Shown piece after piece: positions 24,982-36,671 of a DNA stretch of 64,000 bases. The DNA comes from Naegleria gruberi. Its lineage: Eukaryota. Position numbers and translations under genes: made by a program. Below the pieces are notes generated by a model. It did no database searches and had not been told where the DNA came from. It worked only from the letters and a program-made list of their open reading frames with translations. Location of the stretch: assembly GCA_000004985.1 (NCBI GenBank), contig GG738885.1. One strand, written 5' to 3'. Each line of letters starts with the position of its first letter. Within the stretch, counting starts at the first letter, position 1.

Positions 24982-27900
24982 ATGACATCATTAGATTGGC
25001 TGCAAGTGAGCGGAATTCGTTCCTTCGATCACACAAGTGGAGCACAAACGATCAAATTCTTCAAGCCTTTGACAATTATTTTGGGAGCCAATGGTGCGGG
25101 AAAGGTTTGTACTAGTAAAATTATATAAATATTAATATTAATATGCGATCAAATATTAAATTATGATAGACGACAATTATTGAATGTTTGAAATGTGCAA
25201 CAACAGGTGAATTGCCACCAAATTGTGATCGTGGTAAATCATTTATACACGATCCCAAAGTTTCGGGTGATTCGGAAGTAAAAGGTCAAATTAGGCTTCA
25301 ATTCAAGTCTGGCAACAAGAAACGATACATCACAGTAAGAAGTTTTCAAGTTTCACAGAAAAAGAAAACAACTCAGTTTAAACAATTGGAGGCTGTACTA
25401 CAGACTAAAGGAGAAGATGGAGAAGTGAAGAGTAATAGTTACAAATGTACAGATATGGATAAATTGATTCCGGAATGTATGGGTGTTAGCAAAGCTATTT
25501 TGGAAAATGTTATATTTTGCCATCAGGAAGAAGTAAATTGGCCACTCAGTGACAGTTTATCTTTAAAGAAAAAGTTGGATGATATTTTCTCTAGTACCAG
25601 ATATTCTAAAGCTTTGGAGGCTATTAAAAAAACAAAGAAAGAGATAGGACAACAACTTTCGGATTATGAAAAGGAATTGGCTGTAGCTGAAACAGAAAAA
25701 TCTCAATCTGTCAAGCTGAAAAAAGAAGCTGAATCAGAAATTGTTAAACTACAAAAATTGAAGGAAAGTATGGAAAAATATGAAACAGAAATGCAAGAAA
25801 TTGGTGATAAGGTATCAAAATATGAAGGCGTTATCGAAAAAATCAATAGCTTGAAACAAAAATTCACTGAGAAGGATACTCAAAAGAAAATGCTTCAAAA
25901 GCAAGTAGCTGAGCTCTATGCCGGTTTGGAACAAGAATTCACTGAGACTGACCAGGAGGTGGAAGATTTTGAGAAAAATTTCAAGAAACAACTCGAGAAC
26001 TTGAACCAGAGCAAGATAACCACCGAAAGCTCACTGAAAACAAATGAAGTAACAAAGAATTCTGTGAACAAGGAATTGAATGGCCTGAATGAAGAATTGG
26101 GAAAGCTCAAGTCCTTTAAGGAAACTCATGAGAGTAAATTAATGGATATCAGTGCTGAAATATTCACTTTAGCTGAGAGATACAAGATTTCTGGATATGA
26201 CCAATTGCCACTTAATGAAAGTCAAATTGACGCATTTTCTAAAGTGATTTCAAAACTTTATGAAGATAACAAGAAAGCTTTTGATACCTTGAAAATGCAA
26301 CACAAGTCAGAAGTCGATCAACTTACTAAGGAAATGAACGTTGCCCACCAAAAGAAGGAAACCGTTCTCAAACAAGTTAAAGTTACAGAGCAACTCAAGA
26401 CGAAATATGAGAGAGAAGAAAAAGATTTGAAAGAAAAACTTAGTAAGATTAATACTAATGCAGCTATTGTTAAGAAGGCAGAAGAAGAATTCCAACAATT
26501 AAAAACAGCACTGAAAGAAAAGCAAGAAAAGAAAGAATCTGAAAGTTTCAAAAATCAAATAGAATCAAATAATAAGCAATCTAAAGAAATCACTCAAAAG
26601 ATTTCCTCCATCAATAAGGAACTCACATCCAGAGAAAAAGAGAAGGAAATTAGTTTCAAGATACAAAATCTGAAGGAAGAACTCACCAAACACAACTCTT
26701 CCCTAGAAGAAAAGCTTCTAGACCTTAAAGGACGTTACGAAACTGTTTTAGGTGTTCAAGAAAATGATGTAACAACAGCCAACATTGAACCAAAGATCAA
26801 AAACCTTATTAAGAAAAGCACGGAACAAGTTAATGCTAAAAACGTTTCTATTCAATCGACAGAGAAGAGCATTTCTGTAACCAAATCTAAACTTGAATCT
26901 ATTACAAACCAGGAAAAGAAGATTAAGAGAGACATTGAAACCAAAGAAAAGAATGTCGAATCAGTGCTTCCTTCTGGTAAGTCTTGGGAAGAGGCTATGA
27001 GTGAAGCTGAAGAAGCTGTTTCTGATTTAAGAAACGAGGTCAGTTTGACAGAGGCTCTCAAAATGTGTTATGAAAACTTTGTAAAGCACGCTCGTACAAA
27101 CCATCAATGTCCTGTTTGTGAAAGAGGCATGAACACAGAAGAATGCTCTACTTTTGAAAGTTTACAAATGACCAAGCTTGAACAAACTCCAAAGTTTCTC
27201 CAAAAGAAGAAAGCCAAGTTAGAAGTGGCTATCCAACAACAAGAAAAGATTAGAGAAATCAAACCAATTATTACAACTATCCAAAACTTGAAGAGTAAGG
27301 ATCTTCCAGATGCAGAAAAAGAACTTGCATCTCTGAATGAAGAAGTACAAAGACTCAACTCTATTGTTTCTAAATTCACACAAGAACTCGATACTCTCAA
27401 GCAAGAAGAAAAGAAAGCCAACGATCTTTTACCTAGTGTTGCTGATTTGAAAATCTTACAATCAGCTATTCGTTCAAGTCAACAACGTTTAACTGAGCAA
27501 GAAAATGAACTCAAAAAACTTGGACTTCCAGAGGATCTTGTACCATACGAAGACTTGAAGCGAAATCTTGAAGAATCCCAAACTTTGAGAGAGAAACTTG
27601 CCCAACAAAATCAAAACTTACAAGTTGAATTGGAGAAAGCCCAGAGTGAGTTAACAAAACTCAATAACGAGGTTCACCAAAAGCAAAATTTATTACAAAA
27701 ATTACAATTTGAATTGAAGGAAATGGAAAGATTAAATGAAAGTCTTGCACAAAAACAAAAAGATTTGCAACAAACAATCACTGATATTGAAAAACAACAA
27801 CAAGATATACCTACCCTTGAAAAGACGGAGCAAAATCTTAACACCTCACTAACAGAATTGAAAGAAAAGCATAGAAAGGAAGAATACATCATGGAAGGTA

Positions 27901-29341: not shown

Positions 29342-30217
29342 ATGATCAACGACTTTTACTCTTCAAATCAATTCAATAGAGGGGTGGCAACACAGATCAG
29401 CGTTGCTACTAATGCTAATAACAACAATTTTGGGTATTCTGGTTTCAGATCATCGGTTCCTTCCTCAATATTTAGTCACAATGTGAGTCAGGCATTAGAT
29501 AGTAAGACATGTCCTATTGGTCAATCTCAAATAGTACAAGAATTAACTCTGCTCCATTCACTACTCGTCCAATATTTGAAAAACAATACTTCACCAACAT
29601 CGTCAACATGTTCTTCCAATAATAGTGTATGTTTCACCACACCAACAAAATATTCAATTGGGAGTGATTCAATGAATTTTGCATGTGGTAATAGATTCAC
29701 ATCCAGTTCTTATTCATCTGAGTCATCCATTTCCAATCCACTCCTAATGAGCAGTAGTAGTGCTACTTCACCATATGGTGGATGTTCAAGTCCTGTCAGA
29801 TCATCCATTGCAACAACTTCATTCTCTTCACCGACACACATCCAACGAACATTTAGCAATTCGAATTTCCAATCATTTTCATCAACACCACTCAGTTCCA
29901 TGAGTGAATACGAGGAGAGAATTTCCAAACTAGAACAATTAGTCAAACAAATTCTCAGTTTAATTTATAGAGGCGATTATAAATCACCAGCAACAGATAA
30001 CAAGTCAAGCTCACAAGTTGTTAAACTTGATTCTACTAACTCAATCAAACAATTACTAACCAGTAAAATTAAGGAAACCTATCAATTAGATATGGAACCT
30101 CTCAAACAAATAGTTGCCTCAGTTGTTCATCATGAACCAAAACGATTAAATATGGGATATGATATCATCTTCCAAATGAAAACTGAGTTGACGTATTTAA
30201 GTCAATTGTGTAAATAA
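29342..30217 (+). CDS. Hypothetical Ser/Thr/Asn-rich protein (291 aa).
   Basis: ORF with ATG at 29342 filling the gap between RAD50 and the dephospho-CoA kinase gene. Low-complexity composition, so modest confidence. Confidence 0.4.
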   Translation: MINDFYSSNQFNRGVATQISVATNANNNNFGYSGFRSSVPSSIFSHNVSQALDSKTCPIGQSQIVQELTLLHSLLVQYLKNNTSPTSSTCSSNNSVCFTTPTKYSIGSDSMNFACGNRFTSSSYSSESSISNPLLMSSSSATSPYGGCSSPVRSSIATTSFSSPTHIQRTFSNSNFQSFSSTPLSSMSEYEERISKLEQLVKQILSLIYRGDYKSPATDNKSSSQVVKLDSTNSIKQLLTSKIKETYQLDMEPLKQIVASVVHHEPKRLNMGYDIIFQMKTELTYLSQLCK

Positions 30218-30222
30218 ACAAT

Positions 30223-31138
30223 TTAATTAAATAAGAATTTCAAAATGAATCCACAAATAATTATTCCAATAGCGATCAGAAAAACCTTCAATCCAAATGT
30301 AGAAGCATGTTTGGCACATCTATCCACAACTTTGAAAGTTTCCTCTTTCAAATATGTCTTATCTTTACAATTGTCAATTACAAAATTACTTCTTCTAGCT
30401 TTCTCTTCAACTGGAAGTTGAGATTTAATTCTTTGCAAAGCTTCCTCTTCACTATATCCATTTCTACTCATTAGCCATTGTAACTGTCTTTCATCTGATG
30501 TTTTAATACAAACTATTGTCGAAACAATATATTTAAAAACTTTGGTTTCGAATAAAAGAGGTAATTCCACAAAACACAAAGTTTCCTTTCCAATTCTTGT
30601 CATGGATTTGAAAAATTCTTTAAATATTCTAAACATTATTTCTTTAAATATCTCCATATGTGTGGCTGAATTAATCATTTTCCTAACCTTAACATCTTCC
30701 ACAAATCAACTCAACTCAATCCACAATTTACCTACCTTTAAAAACAGCAGCACTCAACTTGGCTCTATCAATTGTTTTCCCATCATGATTGAAAATATCA
30801 ACTCTCTCCCCTGTTTCACTATCCAAATAACTTTCAAAAAACAATTTTACAGTTTTGTAACATTTAGATTCGGGTGAGTAGATGGAGTGAGCAATTTCAT
30901 CACTATCAATAATGACAACATGATATTGATCGGAATAAATTTCACCATATTCCCTCAAATATTGTGTTATAGTTGTCTGTATATTCATCATGTAAATAAT
31001 TACAACAATTAATTGTTGATATTAATAGTAATTTACCTTTCCTAAATATTCCGAAATTAAATAAATTGTTGTTGATCAAATGATGCTTGTTTCTTACCTA
31101 CCACATGATATTCCTCCAGTAACACCAATTAATTTCAT
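30223..31138 (-). CDS. Dephospho-CoA kinase with C-terminal TM tail. Four exons: 31138..31102, 31041..31037 (5-nt micro-exon), 30976..30736, 30695..30223.
   Basis: After splicing the P-loop reads MKLIGVTGGISC-G-K-TTITQYL (GxxxxGKT). HVVIIDSDEIAHSIYSPESKCYKTVKLFFESYL...DGKTIDRAKLSAAVFKD and FVELPLLFETKVF...LMSRNGYSEEEALQRIKSQLPVEEKARRSNFVIDN are collinear with CoaE. Hydrophobic C-terminus LIAIGIIICGFILKFLF. Confidence 0.8.
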
Positions 31139-31423
31139 TTTTTCAAATTATTAAAAACAGAACTATTTCTAAATTTTTTCTAAAGTCTTTGAAATTGAAT
31201 TCACAAATAGTAATCCATCCTGGGTGCTGATTAGAGTTTATTAGATTCATGCAAAAATCTAAGTGTCTTGTGTTAAATCTATCAGGTTTGAATGTGTTCA
31301 ATCTTCCTAGTATCTTAATTATCTTAATGCCAAATTATTCTCTCTCTTGACGTATCGGAAAGTGTTTGATTGTAATTGAATCGGTCAATCTTGTTTACAA
31401 TAAACAAATAAATAATAAAAAAA

Positions 31424-32521
31424 ATGGAAGAAGAACTGCCAGCCATTGTACTCGATATAGGATCAGCATTTACAAAAGCTGGATTTGCAGGTGATGATTA
31501 TCCACGTGGATCCGAACCAATGCCCACACTCGTTGGTCTTCCAAAGTCTAGTGTTGGAGTGCAGGAGACTGCTGGAGATGTGGCCTTCCTCAGACGTTAT
31601 CAATTTAGAATAGTTCATCCAGTGAAAAGAGGTTTAATTCAGGATTGGGATTGTTTGGAGAAATTATTATATTATTCATATTGGACATGGTTGAGATCAC
31701 ATCCGAAAACTTATGGTGTGTTGTGGAGTGAATCAAGTTTGAAATTGGATAGAAAAAAGATTACTCAATTGATGTTTGAAAAGTTTGAAGTACCTGCTTT
31801 TCATTTGGTCAATCAAGGAGTTTTGGCATTGATGGCAACTGGACGAACGAATGGAATAGTTTTGGAGGTAGGAGATGGATGTTCACAATCTATTCCAGTT
31901 GTGGAAGGGTATGCATTGAGACATGCAATAATGGAAGTGGATTTTGCTGGATACGATTTGACAAGGTATTGGATGGAGAGTGTTGGAGCTAGTTCTGAAT
32001 TTGCAAGTGACACAATTTTAAACCATGATGTTATGCGAATAATGAAAGAAAAATTGTGTCATGTTGCTTTGGATTATGAATCGAGTAAGAATGATACTTC
32101 AGTAGTGGAATATGAATTACCTGATGGAAGTATAATTAAAGCAGGTAATGAGCGATTCAAATGTGCAGAATTACTCTTTCAACCACACCTTATTGGATTG
32201 GATATTTTGGGAATTCACGAGTCTGTCATTACTTCAATCAGAAAGTGTGATATTGATTGTAGGAAACTCATGTTTAATAATATTATTCTATCAGGTGGGT
32301 CAACATTGATGAAGGGTATTGTTGAGAGATTGAGAAATGAATTGGTTGAATCGACTTCTTCATGTACTAAAATTGCTGTAAAAGATGTTCCAGAAAGAAG
32401 ATTTCTACCATGGATCGGAGGTTCTATTGCTGCTTCCTTATCCACTTTTCAATCACTGGCTATCTCAGCAACAGAATTTGCCGAAGCTGGAAGTAACATC
32501 TTGTACAGAAAGTACCAGTGA
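31424..32521 (+). CDS. Actin-related protein (divergent Arp; subfamily not assigned).
   Basis: Actin-fold motifs: IVLDIGSAFTKAGFAGDDYP (phosphate-1), VPAFHLVNQGVLALMATGRTNGIVLEVGDGCSQ, YELPDGSIIKAGNERFKCAELLFQP, ILSGGSTLMKGIVERL...WIGGSIAASLSTFQ. Single 365-codon exon. Confidence 0.8.
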   Translation: MEEELPAIVLDIGSAFTKAGFAGDDYPRGSEPMPTLVGLPKSSVGVQETAGDVAFLRRYQFRIVHPVKRGLIQDWDCLEKLLYYSYWTWLRSHPKTYGVLWSESSLKLDRKKITQLMFEKFEVPAFHLVNQGVLALMATGRTNGIVLEVGDGCSQSIPVVEGYALRHAIMEVDFAGYDLTRYWMESVGASSEFASDTILNHDVMRIMKEKLCHVALDYESSKNDTSVVEYELPDGSIIKAGNERFKCAELLFQPHLIGLDILGIHESVITSIRKCDIDCRKLMFNNIILSGGSTLMKGIVERLRNELVESTSSCTKIAVKDVPERRFLPWIGGSIAASLSTFQSLAISATEFAEAGSNILYRKYQ

Positions 32522-32802: not shown

Positions 32803-35800
32803 TTATTGCAAAATCTTTATTTGAAGTGTTTGAGCCAATAAAAGTCTCAATTCAGAAAGTGTTAACAGCTTTGTTTGAGTGTCGTTGCTTATATTTTCTT
32901 TGAACTCAAATTCCATATATTCAACATGTTCCATTACTGAAAGTAATTCAGTGTACTGAAGTAATGTCAAATTGATGGACATTAATAATTCCATTTTAAG
33001 TTCAGAGTTGGGAATTTCGGAGAGAGTGGAAGGTAACAAGTGGGCATTAGCTTCACAATTATCGAGTATCTTAAAGAAGGAAGAGATCCATTGAATTTCT
33101 GGCATTTCAATCATGAAAGAATATTCCTCAAGACCATAATGCACATATCTCAAGTTTTGAGTTGTGCTTATCTTGTCTCTTATCACATCTTCCAGTTCAT
33201 CCATATTACCTGATTTGTAAACATGATAAATACCAGCAGCAAAATTATGTTCAGCAATATATGCCAGTCCTAATTTCAAGTGAAGTTTACCGCAAACAGT
33301 CTTAGCAAATGGTGTATCCTTAACATATCTGTAAATCTTATCAATTTGATTTTCGTTTGTAATATGAATATTCAAAATAATATTGGTAATAATATCTTGA
33401 ATTTGCTTTTGAGATTCGTCATCATAATAAGAAAGATAATCAACAGCAATCTTCCAAAGATCGTTTTCCAAGTTTTCGCATGGATTGGTATCAATCAATT
33501 TTTGATAATAAGGAAGTAACTCTTCAATAACATATAATTTGATTGCTTCGTTTTTGAAAATATGCAAACTTTCAAGATAACTATTGGCATTGGTTGCAGT
33601 ATAAATCCTTTGATAAAGGAAATTGATATGGTAGAAGAAAGTAGCAATATGTGACATGAACCAGTGGTATTTGAAAAATTCTTGGTTTTGATTTGATAAA
33701 GCCAAACCTTGATCAATATTCTTCAACGTGTCCTCCAAATTATCACCAAAAACAATCAAACCAATAGCTTCAAGAACAAGACTTGGTTCATCCTCTTTAA
33801 GATTTTTGGCATGAACAGCCAAATCAATAATTTCATTGATATCAGCAAAATGTTGATACTTATATAATGCCAAACCAATAAGAATTTCAATCCAGTTTTC
33901 AGAGACATCTGTGATGATATTTTCATTTCCAATAAGTATTTCAATGCAAGTGTTAAGGAATGCAAATTCATCAGATCCATCATCTTGACCTTGTAATTCC
34001 TTTTTAAGCTTAAGGACTAACCTCTTCCAAACTTGCATTTCATCAAGATATTCTTCGAATGTAGCTGATATCGAAGAGTAATTAACTACATTAGGACGTT
34101 TAGATAAAATTTCCAAGAATGCTGTATATAAATCATGTAATTTCCTTGGCATTGTCTTTAACTCTGCACTCTTTTGTTGCTTGATAGCTTCAACAACTTT
34201 AGATGAATGCTCACCAATAACCAAAAGTCTGTAAAGATTTTGATCTAACTCACTTTCCCTACTGAAACAGACAGAACTTCTAATGTACCATTTTACAAGT
34301 TTTTGAAGTAAACCTCCTCTGCAGAATCTGTTAAAATAAAATATATCAACAGCAGAGAATATATCAAAATAGGTACCAAATTGTTTAAGTTCCCCAATAC
34401 CTTGGTAGATGATTGATTTGAATTGGGAAATAGTTTTTTCCAAAATATTCTTATCTAGTTTGTCCTCTAGGAAAGCATCTTGCATATAAAGGAACATTTC
34501 TGCAGATTCGTGCAAAATCTTCCACCATAAATCTTCTTTAGATAAAGAGGAATTAGAGTTTGGAGTAAATTCCAAATATTCAGGATTATAAGAGTCGTTA
34601 TCTTCCTCCATAGCTGTATTATTAGAAAGGATTGATCTTTGATAAACTGATTGTGTTGGTGGTGATTTAGCGTTCAAAGGACTGTTCGAAATACTGAATA
34701 TAGTGTCGTTATGATCTGTTGTCTTTTCCAAATATTTGGCAAATGGTGATACTCCATTAGTGCTTGATTCAAAAGAGTCATTATTGAAAGGAACAGAGCC
34801 CTGGATTGGTGCTGTTCTGTTCAAGTCTACAACTTGGCTTGGTTTTGATTGAAATGCTGGCCTATTCATCGCAAACTTGTCTTCTTCTAAAACCAATGGA
34901 TCGTTATCGAGTAAATCTTCTTCATCAACCTTCTTTTTAAAATCAAACTTTGAGCCAGCTTTAACATATGACACTGTGTTTGGTGGTTTTTTGCTTCTTA
35001 CTGCCTTAGGTGTGGAGGTGATTGATGTTATTGGTTGTTCATCATCTTCCATATCTTCATAGGTTTTGGAAATTTGAGGATTCATTGGGAAGTTAATGAC
35101 TGGAGCAGTGGTTTCAGATTTGTTATTGAATCCAAATGAAGGGAAGGATTGTGGTTCGCTTGAAGTATTTCCAAACGAAAAGGAGGTTGGTGCTTTGGTT
35201 GGCACTGGTTCTGAACTACTCTCATCGCTACTGCTACTATCATCATCGTTGTTTGTTGCAAGCTTTCCAAATGAAAATGGAACAGCTCCTTTTCCCAATG
35301 ATGTATTACCTGGATTAAAGCCAGTACTAGAACTGGATGAAGAGCCACTTCCAGGATTAAATCCAAAAGATAAAACTTGACCAGTTCCAGGATTAAATCC
35401 ACCAACTGATTCTTTTGGCTTTTCAGGTTCTGAAGGTTTTGCAAAATTGAATGAACCAGTTGTAGGCTCTGTAGTTGTACTTGATCCAAAATTGAATGAA
35501 AATGGTTTTGTTGTAGATTCTTCTTGTGTAAATCCAAATGAAAGAGTGTTTCCGGTATTGGATTTAGCAGCCTCCTTTTCTGTAGTTGAACCCAAGGAAA
35601 ATGGCTTTGGTACTGATGCTGGCTCTGAGCTACTCTCATCGCTACTGCTACTATCATCATCGTTGTTTGTTGCAAGTTTTCCAAATGAAAATGGAACAGC
35701 ACCTTTTCCTAATGAAGTATTACCTGGATTAAAGCCAGTATTAGAACTGGAAGATCCGCTTCCAGGGTTGAACCCAAAAGATAAAACTTGACTAGCTCCA

Positions 35801-36381
35801 GGATTAAATCCTCCAATTGATTCCTTTGGTTTTTCTTGTTCCTTTGTTTGTCCAAATGAAAATGGTTTTGGTTCAGTATTGCCAGTAGTTGTTGTTCCAA
35901 AAGTAAATCCTTTTGATGAATCAAATGTATCTTTTGGTTGTTCTGTTGATGTATTAGTAGTTTCACTAGTTTTAGTACTCGCCAATGCTCCGAATGAAAA
36001 AGGTACAGAACCAGTTCCAAGTGATGTTTGTCCTGGGTTAAAACCCGAAGATGAAGAACTTCCACTACCAGGATTAAATGCAAAACCTCCACTGCTACTA
36101 GTTCCACCAAAATTGGGTTTTGTTGTGACTGGTGTAGTGAAAGAAAAGCCTCCTTTTGTTTCCTTTACACTAGAGGTTCCTTCCAAAGCAGATGATCCTT
36201 CACTTGAATCCTTTTCCACTAAATTATCCTCGCTCTTTTCAGGTTCATCGGTAGGCTTATTAAAGACAAAATTAACTGGTTTTGAAGGCATATCCACAAG
36301 GATTGGTGGTGTTGTTGTTGTAGGTGTATCATTTTGTGTTTCCTTTGTTGCACGAACTTGAAAAGTCGAAAGAAAACCCAT
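32803..36381 (-). CDS. FG-repeat nucleoporin-like protein: N-terminal FG/FSFG/GFNPG repeats, C-terminal about 570-aa alpha-helical domain.
   Basis: Dozens of FG motifs in a Ser/Thr/Gly-rich N-terminal 600 aa (PFSFG, SFGF, GFNPG, FNFG). Helical C-terminal half. Start taken at first ATG (36381) inside the ORF, which opens at 36417. Confidence 0.75.
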   Translation of the reverse strand: MGFLSTFQVRATKETQNDTPTTTTPPILVDMPSKPVNFVFNKPTDEPEKSEDNLVEKDSSEGSSALEGTSSVKETKGGFSFTTPVTTKPNFGGTSSSGGFAFNPGSGSSSSSGFNPGQTSLGTGSVPFSFGALASTKTSETTNTSTEQPKDTFDSSKGFTFGTTTTGNTEPKPFSFGQTKEQEKPKESIGGFNPGASQVLSFGFNPGSGSSSSNTGFNPGNTSLGKGAVPFSFGKLATNNDDDSSSSDESSSEPASVPKPFSLGSTTEKEAAKSNTGNTLSFGFTQEESTTKPFSFNFGSSTTTEPTTGSFNFAKPSEPEKPKESVGGFNPGTGQVLSFGFNPGSGSSSSSSTGFNPGNTSLGKGAVPFSFGKLATNNDDDSSSSDESSSEPVPTKAPTSFSFGNTSSEPQSFPSFGFNNKSETTAPVINFPMNPQISKTYEDMEDDEQPITSITSTPKAVRSKKPPNTVSYVKAGSKFDFKKKVDEEDLLDNDPLVLEEDKFAMNRPAFQSKPSQVVDLNRTAPIQGSVPFNNDSFESSTNGVSPFAKYLEKTTDHNDTIFSISNSPLNAKSPPTQSVYQRSILSNNTAMEEDNDSYNPEYLEFTPNSNSSLSKEDLWWKILHESAEMFLYMQDAFLEDKLDKNILEKTISQFKSIIYQGIGELKQFGTYFDIFSAVDIFYFNRFCRGGLLQKLVKWYIRSSVCFSRESELDQNLYRLLVIGEHSSKVVEAIKQQKSAELKTMPRKLHDLYTAFLEILSKRPNVVNYSSISATFEEYLDEMQVWKRLVLKLKKELQGQDDGSDEFAFLNTCIEILIGNENIITDVSENWIEILIGLALYKYQHFADINEIIDLAVHAKNLKEDEPSLVLEAIGLIVFGDNLEDTLKNIDQGLALSNQNQEFFKYHWFMSHIATFFYHINFLYQRIYTATNANSYLESLHIFKNEAIKLYVIEELLPYYQKLIDTNPCENLENDLWKIAVDYLSYYDDESQKQIQDIITNIILNIHITNENQIDKIYRYVKDTPFAKTVCGKLHLKLGLAYIAEHNFAAGIYHVYKSGNMDELEDVIRDKISTTQNLRYVHYGLEEYSFMIEMPEIQWISSFFKILDNCEANAHLLPSTLSEIPNSELKMELLMSINLTLLQYTELLSVMEHVEYMEFEFKENISNDTQTKLLTLSELRLLLAQTLQIKILQ
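35205..35835 (-). repeat. Intragenic tandem duplication: two about 215-nt units (about 35205..35420 and 35620..35835, about 90 % identical; period 414 nt) inside the FG-nucleoporin gene.
   Basis: Nucleotide blocks ...gctactgctactatcatcatcgttgtttgttgcaag...ccaaaagataaaacttgac... occur twice. At protein level KESxGGFNPGxxQVLSFGFNPGSGSSSS..TGFNPGNTSLGKGAVPFSFGKLATNNDDDSSSSDESSSEP occurs twice. Antisense ORFs 35096..35380 and 35447..35791 mirror the duplication. Confidence 0.85.
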
Positions 36382-36671
36382 AATGTCATTGGCTCCCTCC
36401 TTTCTGTTATTGTTCAAAATTGTTCAATAATAAATTATCATCATGATTGTGATGGAAATTGTTGTGGTGAATAAATTTTATTATTAAAATCACCTACCCG
36501 AAAAGTCCTGACATTTTTTTCTTTAAATTCTTGAAGTTTATTCAAATATTAATAACAATACAACACTATGTAATATGTTTCATCACAACACTGTAATAAT
36601 TAAATCCTTGTTTTCCACATGGAAAAACAACTTTTCTTATTAATTGAAGAAGCAAATAATTGAAAGAAAAA

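What the first reader, a model, noticed from the sequence alone, without database searches (positions are those of the whole stretch)
30976..31102. Five-nucleotide micro-exon encodes the Gly-Lys of the dephospho-CoA kinase P-loop
The only way to obtain an intact Walker A (GVTGGISCGKTT) is to splice exon 1 (ending TGT G), a 5-nt exon GAAAG (31041..31037, minus strand) flanked by tatttag| and |gtaaat, and exon 3 (ACA ACT...). Each flanking intron is about 58-60 nt, with canonical GT/AG. Micro-exons this small are rare and are easily missed by gene predictors; missing it frameshifts or truncates the catalytic motif.
Basis: partly seen in the sequence, partly recalled or inferred. Interest (0 to 1): 0.5.

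Follow-up and report, generated by a model that had tools for sequence, protein, structure and literature searches.

The report
Five-base micro-exon in Naegleria CoA kinase
A 5-base exon (GAAAG) between two 60-base introns supplies the essential ATP-binding lysine of the Naegleria gruberi dephospho-CoA kinase gene; it is conserved across Naegleria species and public gene annotations have missed it, but it is one more example of a known kind of very small exon.

Summary
The window is Naegleria gruberi NEG-M. On the minus strand lies a four-exon dephospho-CoA kinase (DPCK, CoaE) gene:

- exon 1, 31138-31102
- intron, 60 nt
- micro-exon GAAAG, 31041-31037
- intron, 60 nt
- exon 3, 30976-30736
- intron, 40 nt
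- exon 4, 30695-30223

Only three GT-AG splice paths keep the frame open from the ATG into exon 3. Only the micro-exon path gives a Walker A motif (GVTGGISCGKTT). A suitable AG|GNAAR|GT arises by chance in about 0.2% of shuffled intervals.

The same 5-nt exon (GAAAG or GAAAA) sits at the same codon position in N. lovaniensis, N. fowleri and a further Naegleria-like metagenome contig, although the introns have diverged. Willaertia magna has the same codons in an intronless gene.

My N. lovaniensis splice model reproduces the public protein exactly. The public N. fowleri protein skips the micro-exons and has no P-loop. No N. gruberi model for this gene turned up.

I found no direct transcript evidence. 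Ultra-short micro-exons are already known, notably in plants, so this is a new member of a known kind and is of moderate interest.

The parts
31102..31138 (-). Exon 1 of the DPCK (CoaE) gene. It runs from the ATG at 31138 and encodes MKLIGVTGGISC plus the first base (G) of the Gly13 codon.
   Evidence: The N-terminus aligns without gaps to Willaertia, N. lovaniensis and 2if2.
31042..31101 (-). Intron 1, 60 nt, GTAGGTAAGA...ATATTTAG. It contains a TGATCAAC motif that may be the branch site.
   Evidence: The donor TGTG|GTAGGT is conserved in all four species.
31037..31041 (-). The 5-nt micro-exon GAAAG. It supplies bases 2-3 of Gly13 (G|GA) and the whole Lys14 codon (AAG) of the Walker A motif GxxxxGK[ST].
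   Evidence: Orthologous GAAAR micro-exons are present in L001, L003, L004 and L005.
30977..31036 (-). Intron 2, 60 nt, GTAAATTACT...AATATACAG, phase 0, directly after the Lys codon.
30736..30976 (-). Exon 3, 241 nt, encoding TTITQYLREYG...AAVFK plus one base.
30696..30735 (-). Intron 3, 40 nt, GTAGGTAAAT...GTGGAAG, phase 1. An intron lies at the same position in N. lovaniensis (55 nt), N. fowleri (98 nt) and L005.
30223..30695 (-). Exon 4, 473 nt including the stop codon. It encodes the rest of the CoaE domain and a C-terminal hydrophobic tail.
   Evidence: (ORF 30223..30702). The exons sum to 37+5+241+473 = 756 nt, which is 251 codons plus the stop.

Best explanation
This is the Naegleria gruberi dephospho-CoA kinase gene, which catalyses the last step of CoA synthesis. 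The segment of its coding sequence that encodes the P-loop is interrupted by two canonical 60-nt GT-AG introns lying only 5 nt apart. The constitutive internal micro-exon between them, GAAAG, completes the Gly13 codon and carries the whole codon of the ATP-binding Walker-A lysine.

Productive mRNA requires both introns to be removed, joining ...TCATGTG-GAAAG-ACAACT... The order of removal is inferred rather than shown. A 5-nt exon is too short to carry splicing complexes on both sides at once, so the two short introns are probably each recognised by intron definition and removed one after the other. Removing either one first leaves a normal site for the other: AAAG|GTAAAT as donor, or TATTTAG|GAAAGACA as acceptor. 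Skipping the micro-exon, or retaining either intron, gives a frameshift or an immediate stop and no kinase.
For: - Sequence and coordinates are exact.
- It is the only GT-AG splice path that gives a Walker A motif, here and in three orthologous loci. L005 has one further pattern match, through a 39-nt exon that does not give the family N-terminus.
- The chance of such a motif in the interval is about 0.002.
- The model protein matches Pfam CoaE at E = 5e-35. It aligns without gaps to intronless Willaertia and to solved DPCK structures across MK.IG.TG.I.CGK.T.
- The micro-exon and its AG/GT flanks are conserved, while the flanking introns are only 57-60% identical between N. fowleri and N. lovaniensis.
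- The exon carries a synonymous change, AAG to AAA, in N. lovaniensis.
- dN/dS between N. fowleri and N. lovaniensis is 0.13, so the gene is under purifying selection.
- The public N. lovaniensis protein equals my micro-exon model exactly, and the intron lengths sum to gene span minus CDS, 212 nt. That annotation was made with BRAKER1 using RNA-seq (PMC6125883).
- The GTAGGT donor is used again at intron 3 of the same gene.
Against: - I obtained no transcript, cDNA or junction read for N. gruberi. A search of metagenome and metatranscriptome contigs for the spliced junction found nothing.
- The spliced protein is not in the 15-billion-protein collection.
- A stronger-looking donor, AG|GTAAGA, overlaps the proposed one 4 nt downstream and could compete with it.
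- Whether RNA-seq reads actually supported the N. lovaniensis micro-exon model is inferred from the method description, not seen.
- The order of intron removal is pure inference.
Confidence: 0.9

Rival explanations
1. There is a single 125-nt intron (31101-30977) and no micro-exon. The gene is then a pseudogene, or it makes only an N-terminally truncated protein without a P-loop that starts at the Met in exon 4.
For: Gene callers do produce such models. A prokaryote-style call on the metagenome contig starts at MINSATH (P0002). The N. fowleri annotation uses one long intron across the region.
Against: - The single-intron product frameshifts to a stop after 23 codons.
- Exons 1-3 are conserved at the protein level across species, and dN/dS is 0.13.
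- A P-loop-less DPCK would lack the ATP-binding lysine that defines the family.
- The micro-exon is conserved inside introns that have otherwise diverged.
Confidence: 0.03
2. The overlapping consensus-like donor TGTGGTAG|GTAAGA is the one mainly used. This would give GR instead of GK, or a frameshifted non-productive isoform.
For: AG|GTAAGA is closer to the general eukaryotic donor consensus than G|GTAGGT. In a crude scan, GTAAGT is the most enriched donor hexamer at candidate introns in this window.
Against: - Every path from that donor frameshifts into a stop within about 10-25 codons.
- In the other three species the second GT is followed by ATCA, AACA or TGTT, which are poor donors, while TGTG|GTAGGT is invariant.
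- GTAGGT is also the donor of intron 3 here and of the extra upstream intron in N. fowleri.
- At most this donor could give a minor aberrant isoform in N. gruberi.
Confidence: 0.04
3. The AG-GAAAG-GT string is a chance occurrence inside one intron, and the apparent restoration of GK is a coincidence.
For: The motif is short and the genome is AT-rich. The pattern occurs 8 times in the 64-kb window counting both strands.
Against: - The probability is about 0.002 for this interval.
- The same 5-nt exon is found in register in three further diverged orthologs, and no other path there gives the family N-terminus.
- The product matches the intronless Willaertia sequence residue for residue in length.
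Confidence: 0.01

Closest known systems
Ultra-short (1-15 nt) constitutive coding micro-exons of land plants (Yu et al. 2022, Nat Commun 13:820, PMC8831610)
   Same: - They are internal coding exons of a few nucleotides flanked by canonical introns.
- They encode part of a conserved protein motif and are conserved across species.
- Intronless orthologs carry the same bases inside a larger exon.
- They are pervasively missing from reference annotations, which gives wrong N-termini or broken domains.
- Tandem micro-exons occur, for example 5 nt plus 12 nt in a rice gene. Compare 11 nt plus 5 nt in N. fowleri and N. lovaniensis.
- That paper also argues that the two flanking introns cannot be spliced at the same time.
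   Different: - The host is a heterolobosean amoeba (Discoba), not a plant.
- The flanking introns are very short (38-73 nt).
- The motif is the Walker A lysine of a P-loop kinase.
- My full-text searches found no paper describing micro-exons in Naegleria.
Dephospho-CoA kinase, CoaE family (PF01121), e.g. Aquifex aeolicus 2if2 and the DPCK domain of mammalian CoA synthase 2f6r
   Same: - The full CoaE domain is present.
- The N-terminal MK.IG.TG.I.CGK.T P-loop aligns without gaps.
- The conserved IDxD and PLLFE motifs are present.
   Different: - The Naegleria and Willaertia proteins carry an extra C-terminal hydrophobic tail of about 25 aa.
- The gene is split by 3-4 introns.
- Enzyme activity was not tested.
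Animal alternative micro-exons (3-27 nt, neuronal, regulated)
   Same: They are very small exons that aligners and gene predictors miss (PMC7821500, listed).
   Different: Animal micro-exons are mostly frame-preserving cassette exons under tissue-specific regulation and lie in long introns. This one is 5 nt, not a multiple of three. It therefore cannot be skipped productively and must be constitutive for function.

Membership tests
Dephospho-CoA kinase (CoaE, PF01121) | Pfam CoaE domain above the gathering threshold | tested here: met
   121.2 bits against a cut-off of 27, residues 3-203 on profile positions 2-174 of 180.
Dephospho-CoA kinase (CoaE, PF01121) | N-terminal Walker A motif G-x4-GK[ST] | tested here: met
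   GGISCGKT is present only when the 5-nt exon is included. It aligns without gaps to the 2if2 P-loop.
Dephospho-CoA kinase (CoaE, PF01121) | Sequence similarity to experimentally solved DPCKs over the whole domain | tested here: met
   2if2 at E = 1.7e-18 over residues 1-220. Also 4zo4, 1uf9, 2f6r, 4ttp and 4i1u.
Dephospho-CoA kinase (CoaE, PF01121) | ATP-dependent phosphorylation of dephospho-CoA | not testable with these tools
   Needs an enzyme assay or complementation of a coaE or cab5 mutant.
Ultra-short internal coding micro-exon (15 nt or less) | AG immediately upstream and GT immediately downstream, with two flanking introns of normal size for the genome | tested here: met
   tatttag|GAAAG|gtaaat, with both introns 60 nt. 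Orthologous introns are 38-73 nt. The median intron in N. lovaniensis is 80 bp (PMC6125883).
Ultra-short internal coding micro-exon (15 nt or less) | Inclusion is required to keep the reading frame and a conserved motif | tested here: met
   Exhaustive enumeration of splice paths in four loci.
Ultra-short internal coding micro-exon (15 nt or less) | Conservation of the micro-exon and its splice sites in orthologs while the introns diverge, with the same bases contiguous in an intronless ortholog | tested here: met
   N. lovaniensis GAAAA, N. fowleri GAAAG and L005 GAAAG. Flanking introns are 57-60% identical between N. fowleri and N. lovaniensis, against 85% nucleotide identity for the CDS. 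Willaertia is intronless.
Ultra-short internal coding micro-exon (15 nt or less) | Transcript evidence: junction reads or cDNA through both junctions | not testable with these tools
   No transcript data were reachable. The junction search of metagenome contigs found nothing and the exact-protein look-up was negative. The only indirect evidence is that the N. lovaniensis annotation, made with RNA-seq guidance, contains the micro-exon.

The most novel reading that the evidence does not exclude
The codons GGA AAG|ACN AC of P-loops may be a recurrent intron-insertion site (proto-splice site) in Naegleria. This would explain three introns within 16 coding nucleotides of the DPCK gene in N. fowleri and N. 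lovaniensis. It would also explain a phase-0 intron at the identical GK|TT position in the unrelated Rad50 gene of the same window. The resulting tandem micro-exons (11 nt plus 5 nt) would then have to be spliced in a fixed order, and failure or regulation of that order (intron retention or exon skipping, leading to a premature stop) could gate the production of active DPCK and so of CoA.
Probability: 0.15. Interest if true: 0.55.

Novelty: new member of a known kind. Interest (0 to 1): 0.4.

Why it matters
- **Annotation.** The gene for the last enzyme of CoA biosynthesis seems to be missing from the N. gruberi reference proteome. In the pathogen N. fowleri it is annotated without its ATP-binding loop. 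Metabolic reconstructions and drug-target lists for the "brain-eating amoeba" that rely on those annotations would therefore record DPCK as absent or defective. The corrected 251-aa models are given in the full report.
- **Splicing biology.** It extends conserved ultra-short micro-exons, including a tandem 11-nt plus 5-nt pair, to Heterolobosea, a lineage with very short introns. I found no report of them there.
- **Experimental use.** It offers a compact natural substrate for testing how two adjacent spliceosomes deal with a 5-nt exon.

Tried and rejected
- **Exact look-up of the spliced protein.** The exact sequence is not in the protein collection.
- **Spliced junction in metagenome contigs.** A degenerate 29-nt pattern covering three Naegleria species gave 0 hits.
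- **More orthologous loci from metagenomes.** Only distant relatives at 25-35% identity came back, and no additional Naegleria loci.
- **Annotation at the N. gruberi locus.** I tried to see the called genes by looking up the neighbouring protein, but it is not on record. That the N. gruberi annotation lacks this gene is therefore inferred: one search returned no N. gruberi hit, although N. gruberi proteins are in the same database.
- **Literature.** No paper combines Naegleria with micro-exons in a relevant way, and none combines Naegleria with dephospho-CoA kinase.
- **Rfam scan of 30000-31600, both strands.** Nothing found, so no structured RNA offers an alternative explanation.
- **Crude ORF-bridging intron scan of the window.** The aim was a genome-specific donor consensus. 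It was too noisy for more than a qualitative statement that GTAAGT, GTATGT, GTAAAT and GTAGGT donors recur.
- **Rejected readings.** A single 125-nt intron, the alternative donor AG|GTAAGA, the unspliced transcript, and chance.

Full report
**Source of the window.** The intronless ORF at 31424-32521 (+) is 100% identical to NAEGRDRAFT_60797 of Naegleria gruberi. The window has about 32% G+C throughout. It is therefore nuclear DNA of N. gruberi NEG-M.

**Checking the observation.** From 31138 the minus strand reads ATG AAA TTA ATT GGT GTT ACT GGA GGA ATA TCA TGT G | gtaggtaaga...aatatttag | GA AAG | gtaaattact...gaatatacag | ACA ACT ATA ACA CAA.
- Exon 1 ends at 31102, the micro-exon is 31041-31037 and exon 3 begins at 30976.
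- Both introns are exactly 60 nt with GT...AG ends.
- The alternatives all fail. The unspliced transcript stops after CGR. A single 125-nt intron frameshifts. The overlapping donor AG|GTAAGA frameshifts with or without the micro-exon.
- I listed every GT-AG path with one to three introns that keeps the ORF open from the ATG into the exon-3 frame. The limits were up to two introns of at least 25 nt and up to three introns of 30-200 nt. Three paths exist. Two of them delete most of the N-terminus (MKLIGTTI..., MKLIGKTTI...). Only the micro-exon path gives MKLIGVTGGISCGKTTITQYLREYG.
- A suitably placed AG-GNAAR-GT appears in 0.16% of mononucleotide shuffles and 0.21% of dinucleotide shuffles of the 125-nt interval.

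**The whole gene.** A third intron of 40 nt (30735-30696, GTAGGTAAAT...GGAAG, phase 1) joins ...AAVFK to DVKVRKMINSATH. The exons sum to 37+5+241+473 = 756 nt, which is 251 codons plus the stop.
- The protein matches Pfam CoaE at 121 bits against a cut-off of 27.
- It aligns from residue 1 to Aquifex DPCK 2if2 at E = 1.7e-18. The segments MKLIGVTGGISCGKTTITQYLREYG and MKRIGLTGNIGCGKSTVAQMFRELG pair without a gap.

**Comparative evidence.** This is the main support. The closest full-length homolog is N. lovaniensis C9374_012577 (XP_044554219.1), at 68% identity and 251 aa. Next is Willaertia magna at 53% and 244 aa. I fetched the encoding loci.

| Locus | Structure around the P-loop |
|---|---|
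| Willaertia magna (L002) | Intronless; reads TGT GGG AAG ACA ACG contiguously |
| N. lovaniensis (L001) | ...GGTGG \| 50-nt intron \| TATTGCGTGTG \| 52-nt intron (gtaggt...ctgtag) \| GAAAA \| 55-nt intron (gtatgt...cgcaag) \| ACAACT |
| N. fowleri (L004) | Same layout; 11-nt exon TATTGCATGTG and micro-exon GAAAG; introns of 49, 56 and 73 nt. The species assignment rests on its exon-4 ORF clustering with the N. fowleri protein and on the annotated protein being reproduced exactly from this contig |
| Metagenome contig L005 | TGTG \| 38-nt intron (gtaggt...ttgcag) \| GAAAG \| 40-nt intron (gtacgt...acttag) \| AGTACA. Its exon 4 is 66-74% identical to the three Naegleria species and 62% to Willaertia |
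| Metagenome contig L003 | N. gruberi-like; repeats the window's structure |

- In L001 and L004 the same unbiased enumeration finds exactly one path with a Walker A motif, and it uses the 5-nt exon. In L005 a second path also matches the pattern, through a 39-nt exon ending in GAAAG, but it does not give the family N-terminus.
- The introns flanking the micro-exon are only 57-60% identical between N. fowleri and N. lovaniensis, against 85% nucleotide identity for the CDS. The only change inside the micro-exon is synonymous, AAG to AAA.
- dN/dS between N. fowleri and N. lovaniensis is 0.13, so this is a functional gene.

**Public annotations.**
- My N. lovaniensis splice model, with the 11-nt and 5-nt exons, translates exactly to XP_044554219.1. 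The four introns sum to 212 nt, which equals gene span minus CDS. The deposited annotation therefore already contains this micro-exon. It was produced with BRAKER1 using RNA-seq (PMC6125883). This suggests, but does not prove, that spliced reads support it.
- The N. fowleri protein FDP41_002369 (XP_044563262.1, 259 aa) is different. It is reproduced exactly by a model that starts at an out-of-frame upstream ATG, reads through the true start as ...AKNEVSGCDRR, and uses one 194-nt intron that skips both micro-exons. It has no P-loop.
- The corrected N. fowleri model is 251 aa and begins MKLVGVTGGIACGKTTLTNYLKEYG.
- No N. gruberi protein was returned for this gene, although N. gruberi proteins are in the same database. 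Neither the 251-aa model nor the exon-4 ORF is in the collection. The reference annotation probably lacks the gene; this is an inference.

**Mechanism.**
- Shown: the micro-exon supplies bases 2-3 of the Gly13 codon and the whole Lys14 codon of GxxxxGK[ST]. Any transcript without it, or with either intron retained, ends prematurely.
- From established knowledge of P-loop kinases: the Walker-A lysine contacts the phosphates of ATP and is essential.
- Inferred: 5 nt cannot hold complexes on the upstream acceptor and the downstream donor at the same time. The two short introns are therefore probably recognised by intron definition and removed one after the other. Either order leaves a normal splice site for the second step. 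The same argument is made for plant micro-exons (PMC8831610).
- The donor G|GTAGGT is invariant at this position in all four species. It is also used at intron 3 here and at the extra upstream intron in N. fowleri, so it is an ordinary Naegleria donor.
- The overlapping AG|GTAAGA donor is specific to N. gruberi and could at most give a non-productive minor isoform.

**Comparison with what is known.** Micro-exons of 1-15 nt are well documented in land plants. There they are constitutive, conserved, encode parts of conserved motifs and are frequently misannotated. Documented cases include validated 1-nt and 5-nt exons and a tandem 5-nt plus 12-nt pair (PMC8831610). The present case has all of these properties in a heterolobosean. 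Full-text searches found no report of micro-exons in Naegleria and no paper on Naegleria DPCK. I class it as a new member of a known kind.

**What led nowhere.** No transcript evidence could be reached. The metagenome search for more orthologs gave only distant relatives. The Rfam scan of the region found nothing. The crude intron scan of the window was too noisy to give a donor consensus.

**Verdict.** Interest is moderate at 0.4. The finding is a tidy, well-conserved example with practical consequences for Naegleria gene annotation, but it is not a new principle.

Noticed in passing
window 24983-25200 (+): The Rad50-like gene (Pfam AAA_23 and SbcC Walker B) has a 65-nt intron (25105-25169, gtttgt...gatag) directly after the Walker-A lysine codon: ...GGT GCG GGA AAG | intron | ACG ACA ATT. 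This is the same phase-0 GK|TT position, with the same flanking exon bases (GGAAAG|ACNAC), as intron 2 of the DPCK gene. It may reflect a proto-splice-site preference.
   Followed up: partly
L004 2385-3456 (N. fowleri contig SRR29240419_285): The public N. fowleri protein FDP41_002369 / XP_044563262.1 (259 aa) is a misannotation. It starts at an out-of-frame upstream ATG and skips the 11-nt and 5-nt exons with one 194-nt intron, so it lacks the P-loop. The corrected model is 251 aa and begins MKLVGVTGGIACGKTT.
   Followed up: yes
L001 3027-3199 and L004 2451-2644: N. lovaniensis and N. fowleri have an additional intron (GG|T) that N. gruberi and L005 lack. It creates an 11-nt exon next to the 5-nt exon, so there are three introns within 16 coding nucleotides. 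Willaertia magna has none of the gene's introns.
   Followed up: partly
window 30223-31138 (-): The homology search returned no N. gruberi protein for this gene, although N. gruberi proteins are in the same database. The DPCK gene seems to be missing from the NEG-M reference annotation.
   Followed up: partly
window 31424-32521 (+) and 32803-36417 (-): In N. lovaniensis, N. fowleri and Willaertia, Nup85 lies directly upstream of the DPCK gene on the same strand. In N. gruberi a divergent actin-family gene (NAEGRDRAFT_60797, about 45% identical to actins) sits between them on the opposite strand. The N. gruberi Nup85 ORF also carries a long N-terminal FG/GFNPG-repeat region.
   Followed up: partly
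window 31071-31078 (-); L004 about 2539-2553: A TGATCAACAACAAT motif is shared by intron 1 of N. gruberi and the homologous N. fowleri intron, although the introns are otherwise divergent. ATCAAC or GATCA-like motifs recur in the other introns. It may be the branch site.
   Followed up: no
window 30223-30300 (-): The DPCK ends in a hydrophobic tail of about 25 residues (FGLKVFLIAIGIIICGFILKFLFN). It is conserved in Naegleria and Willaertia and in a more distant homolog (P0006), which suggests a tail-anchored membrane protein.
   Followed up: no
window 30696-30735 (-): Intron 3 is only 40 nt and has an AAG acceptor. The orthologous intron is 55 nt in N. lovaniensis and 98 nt in N. fowleri.
   Followed up: partly
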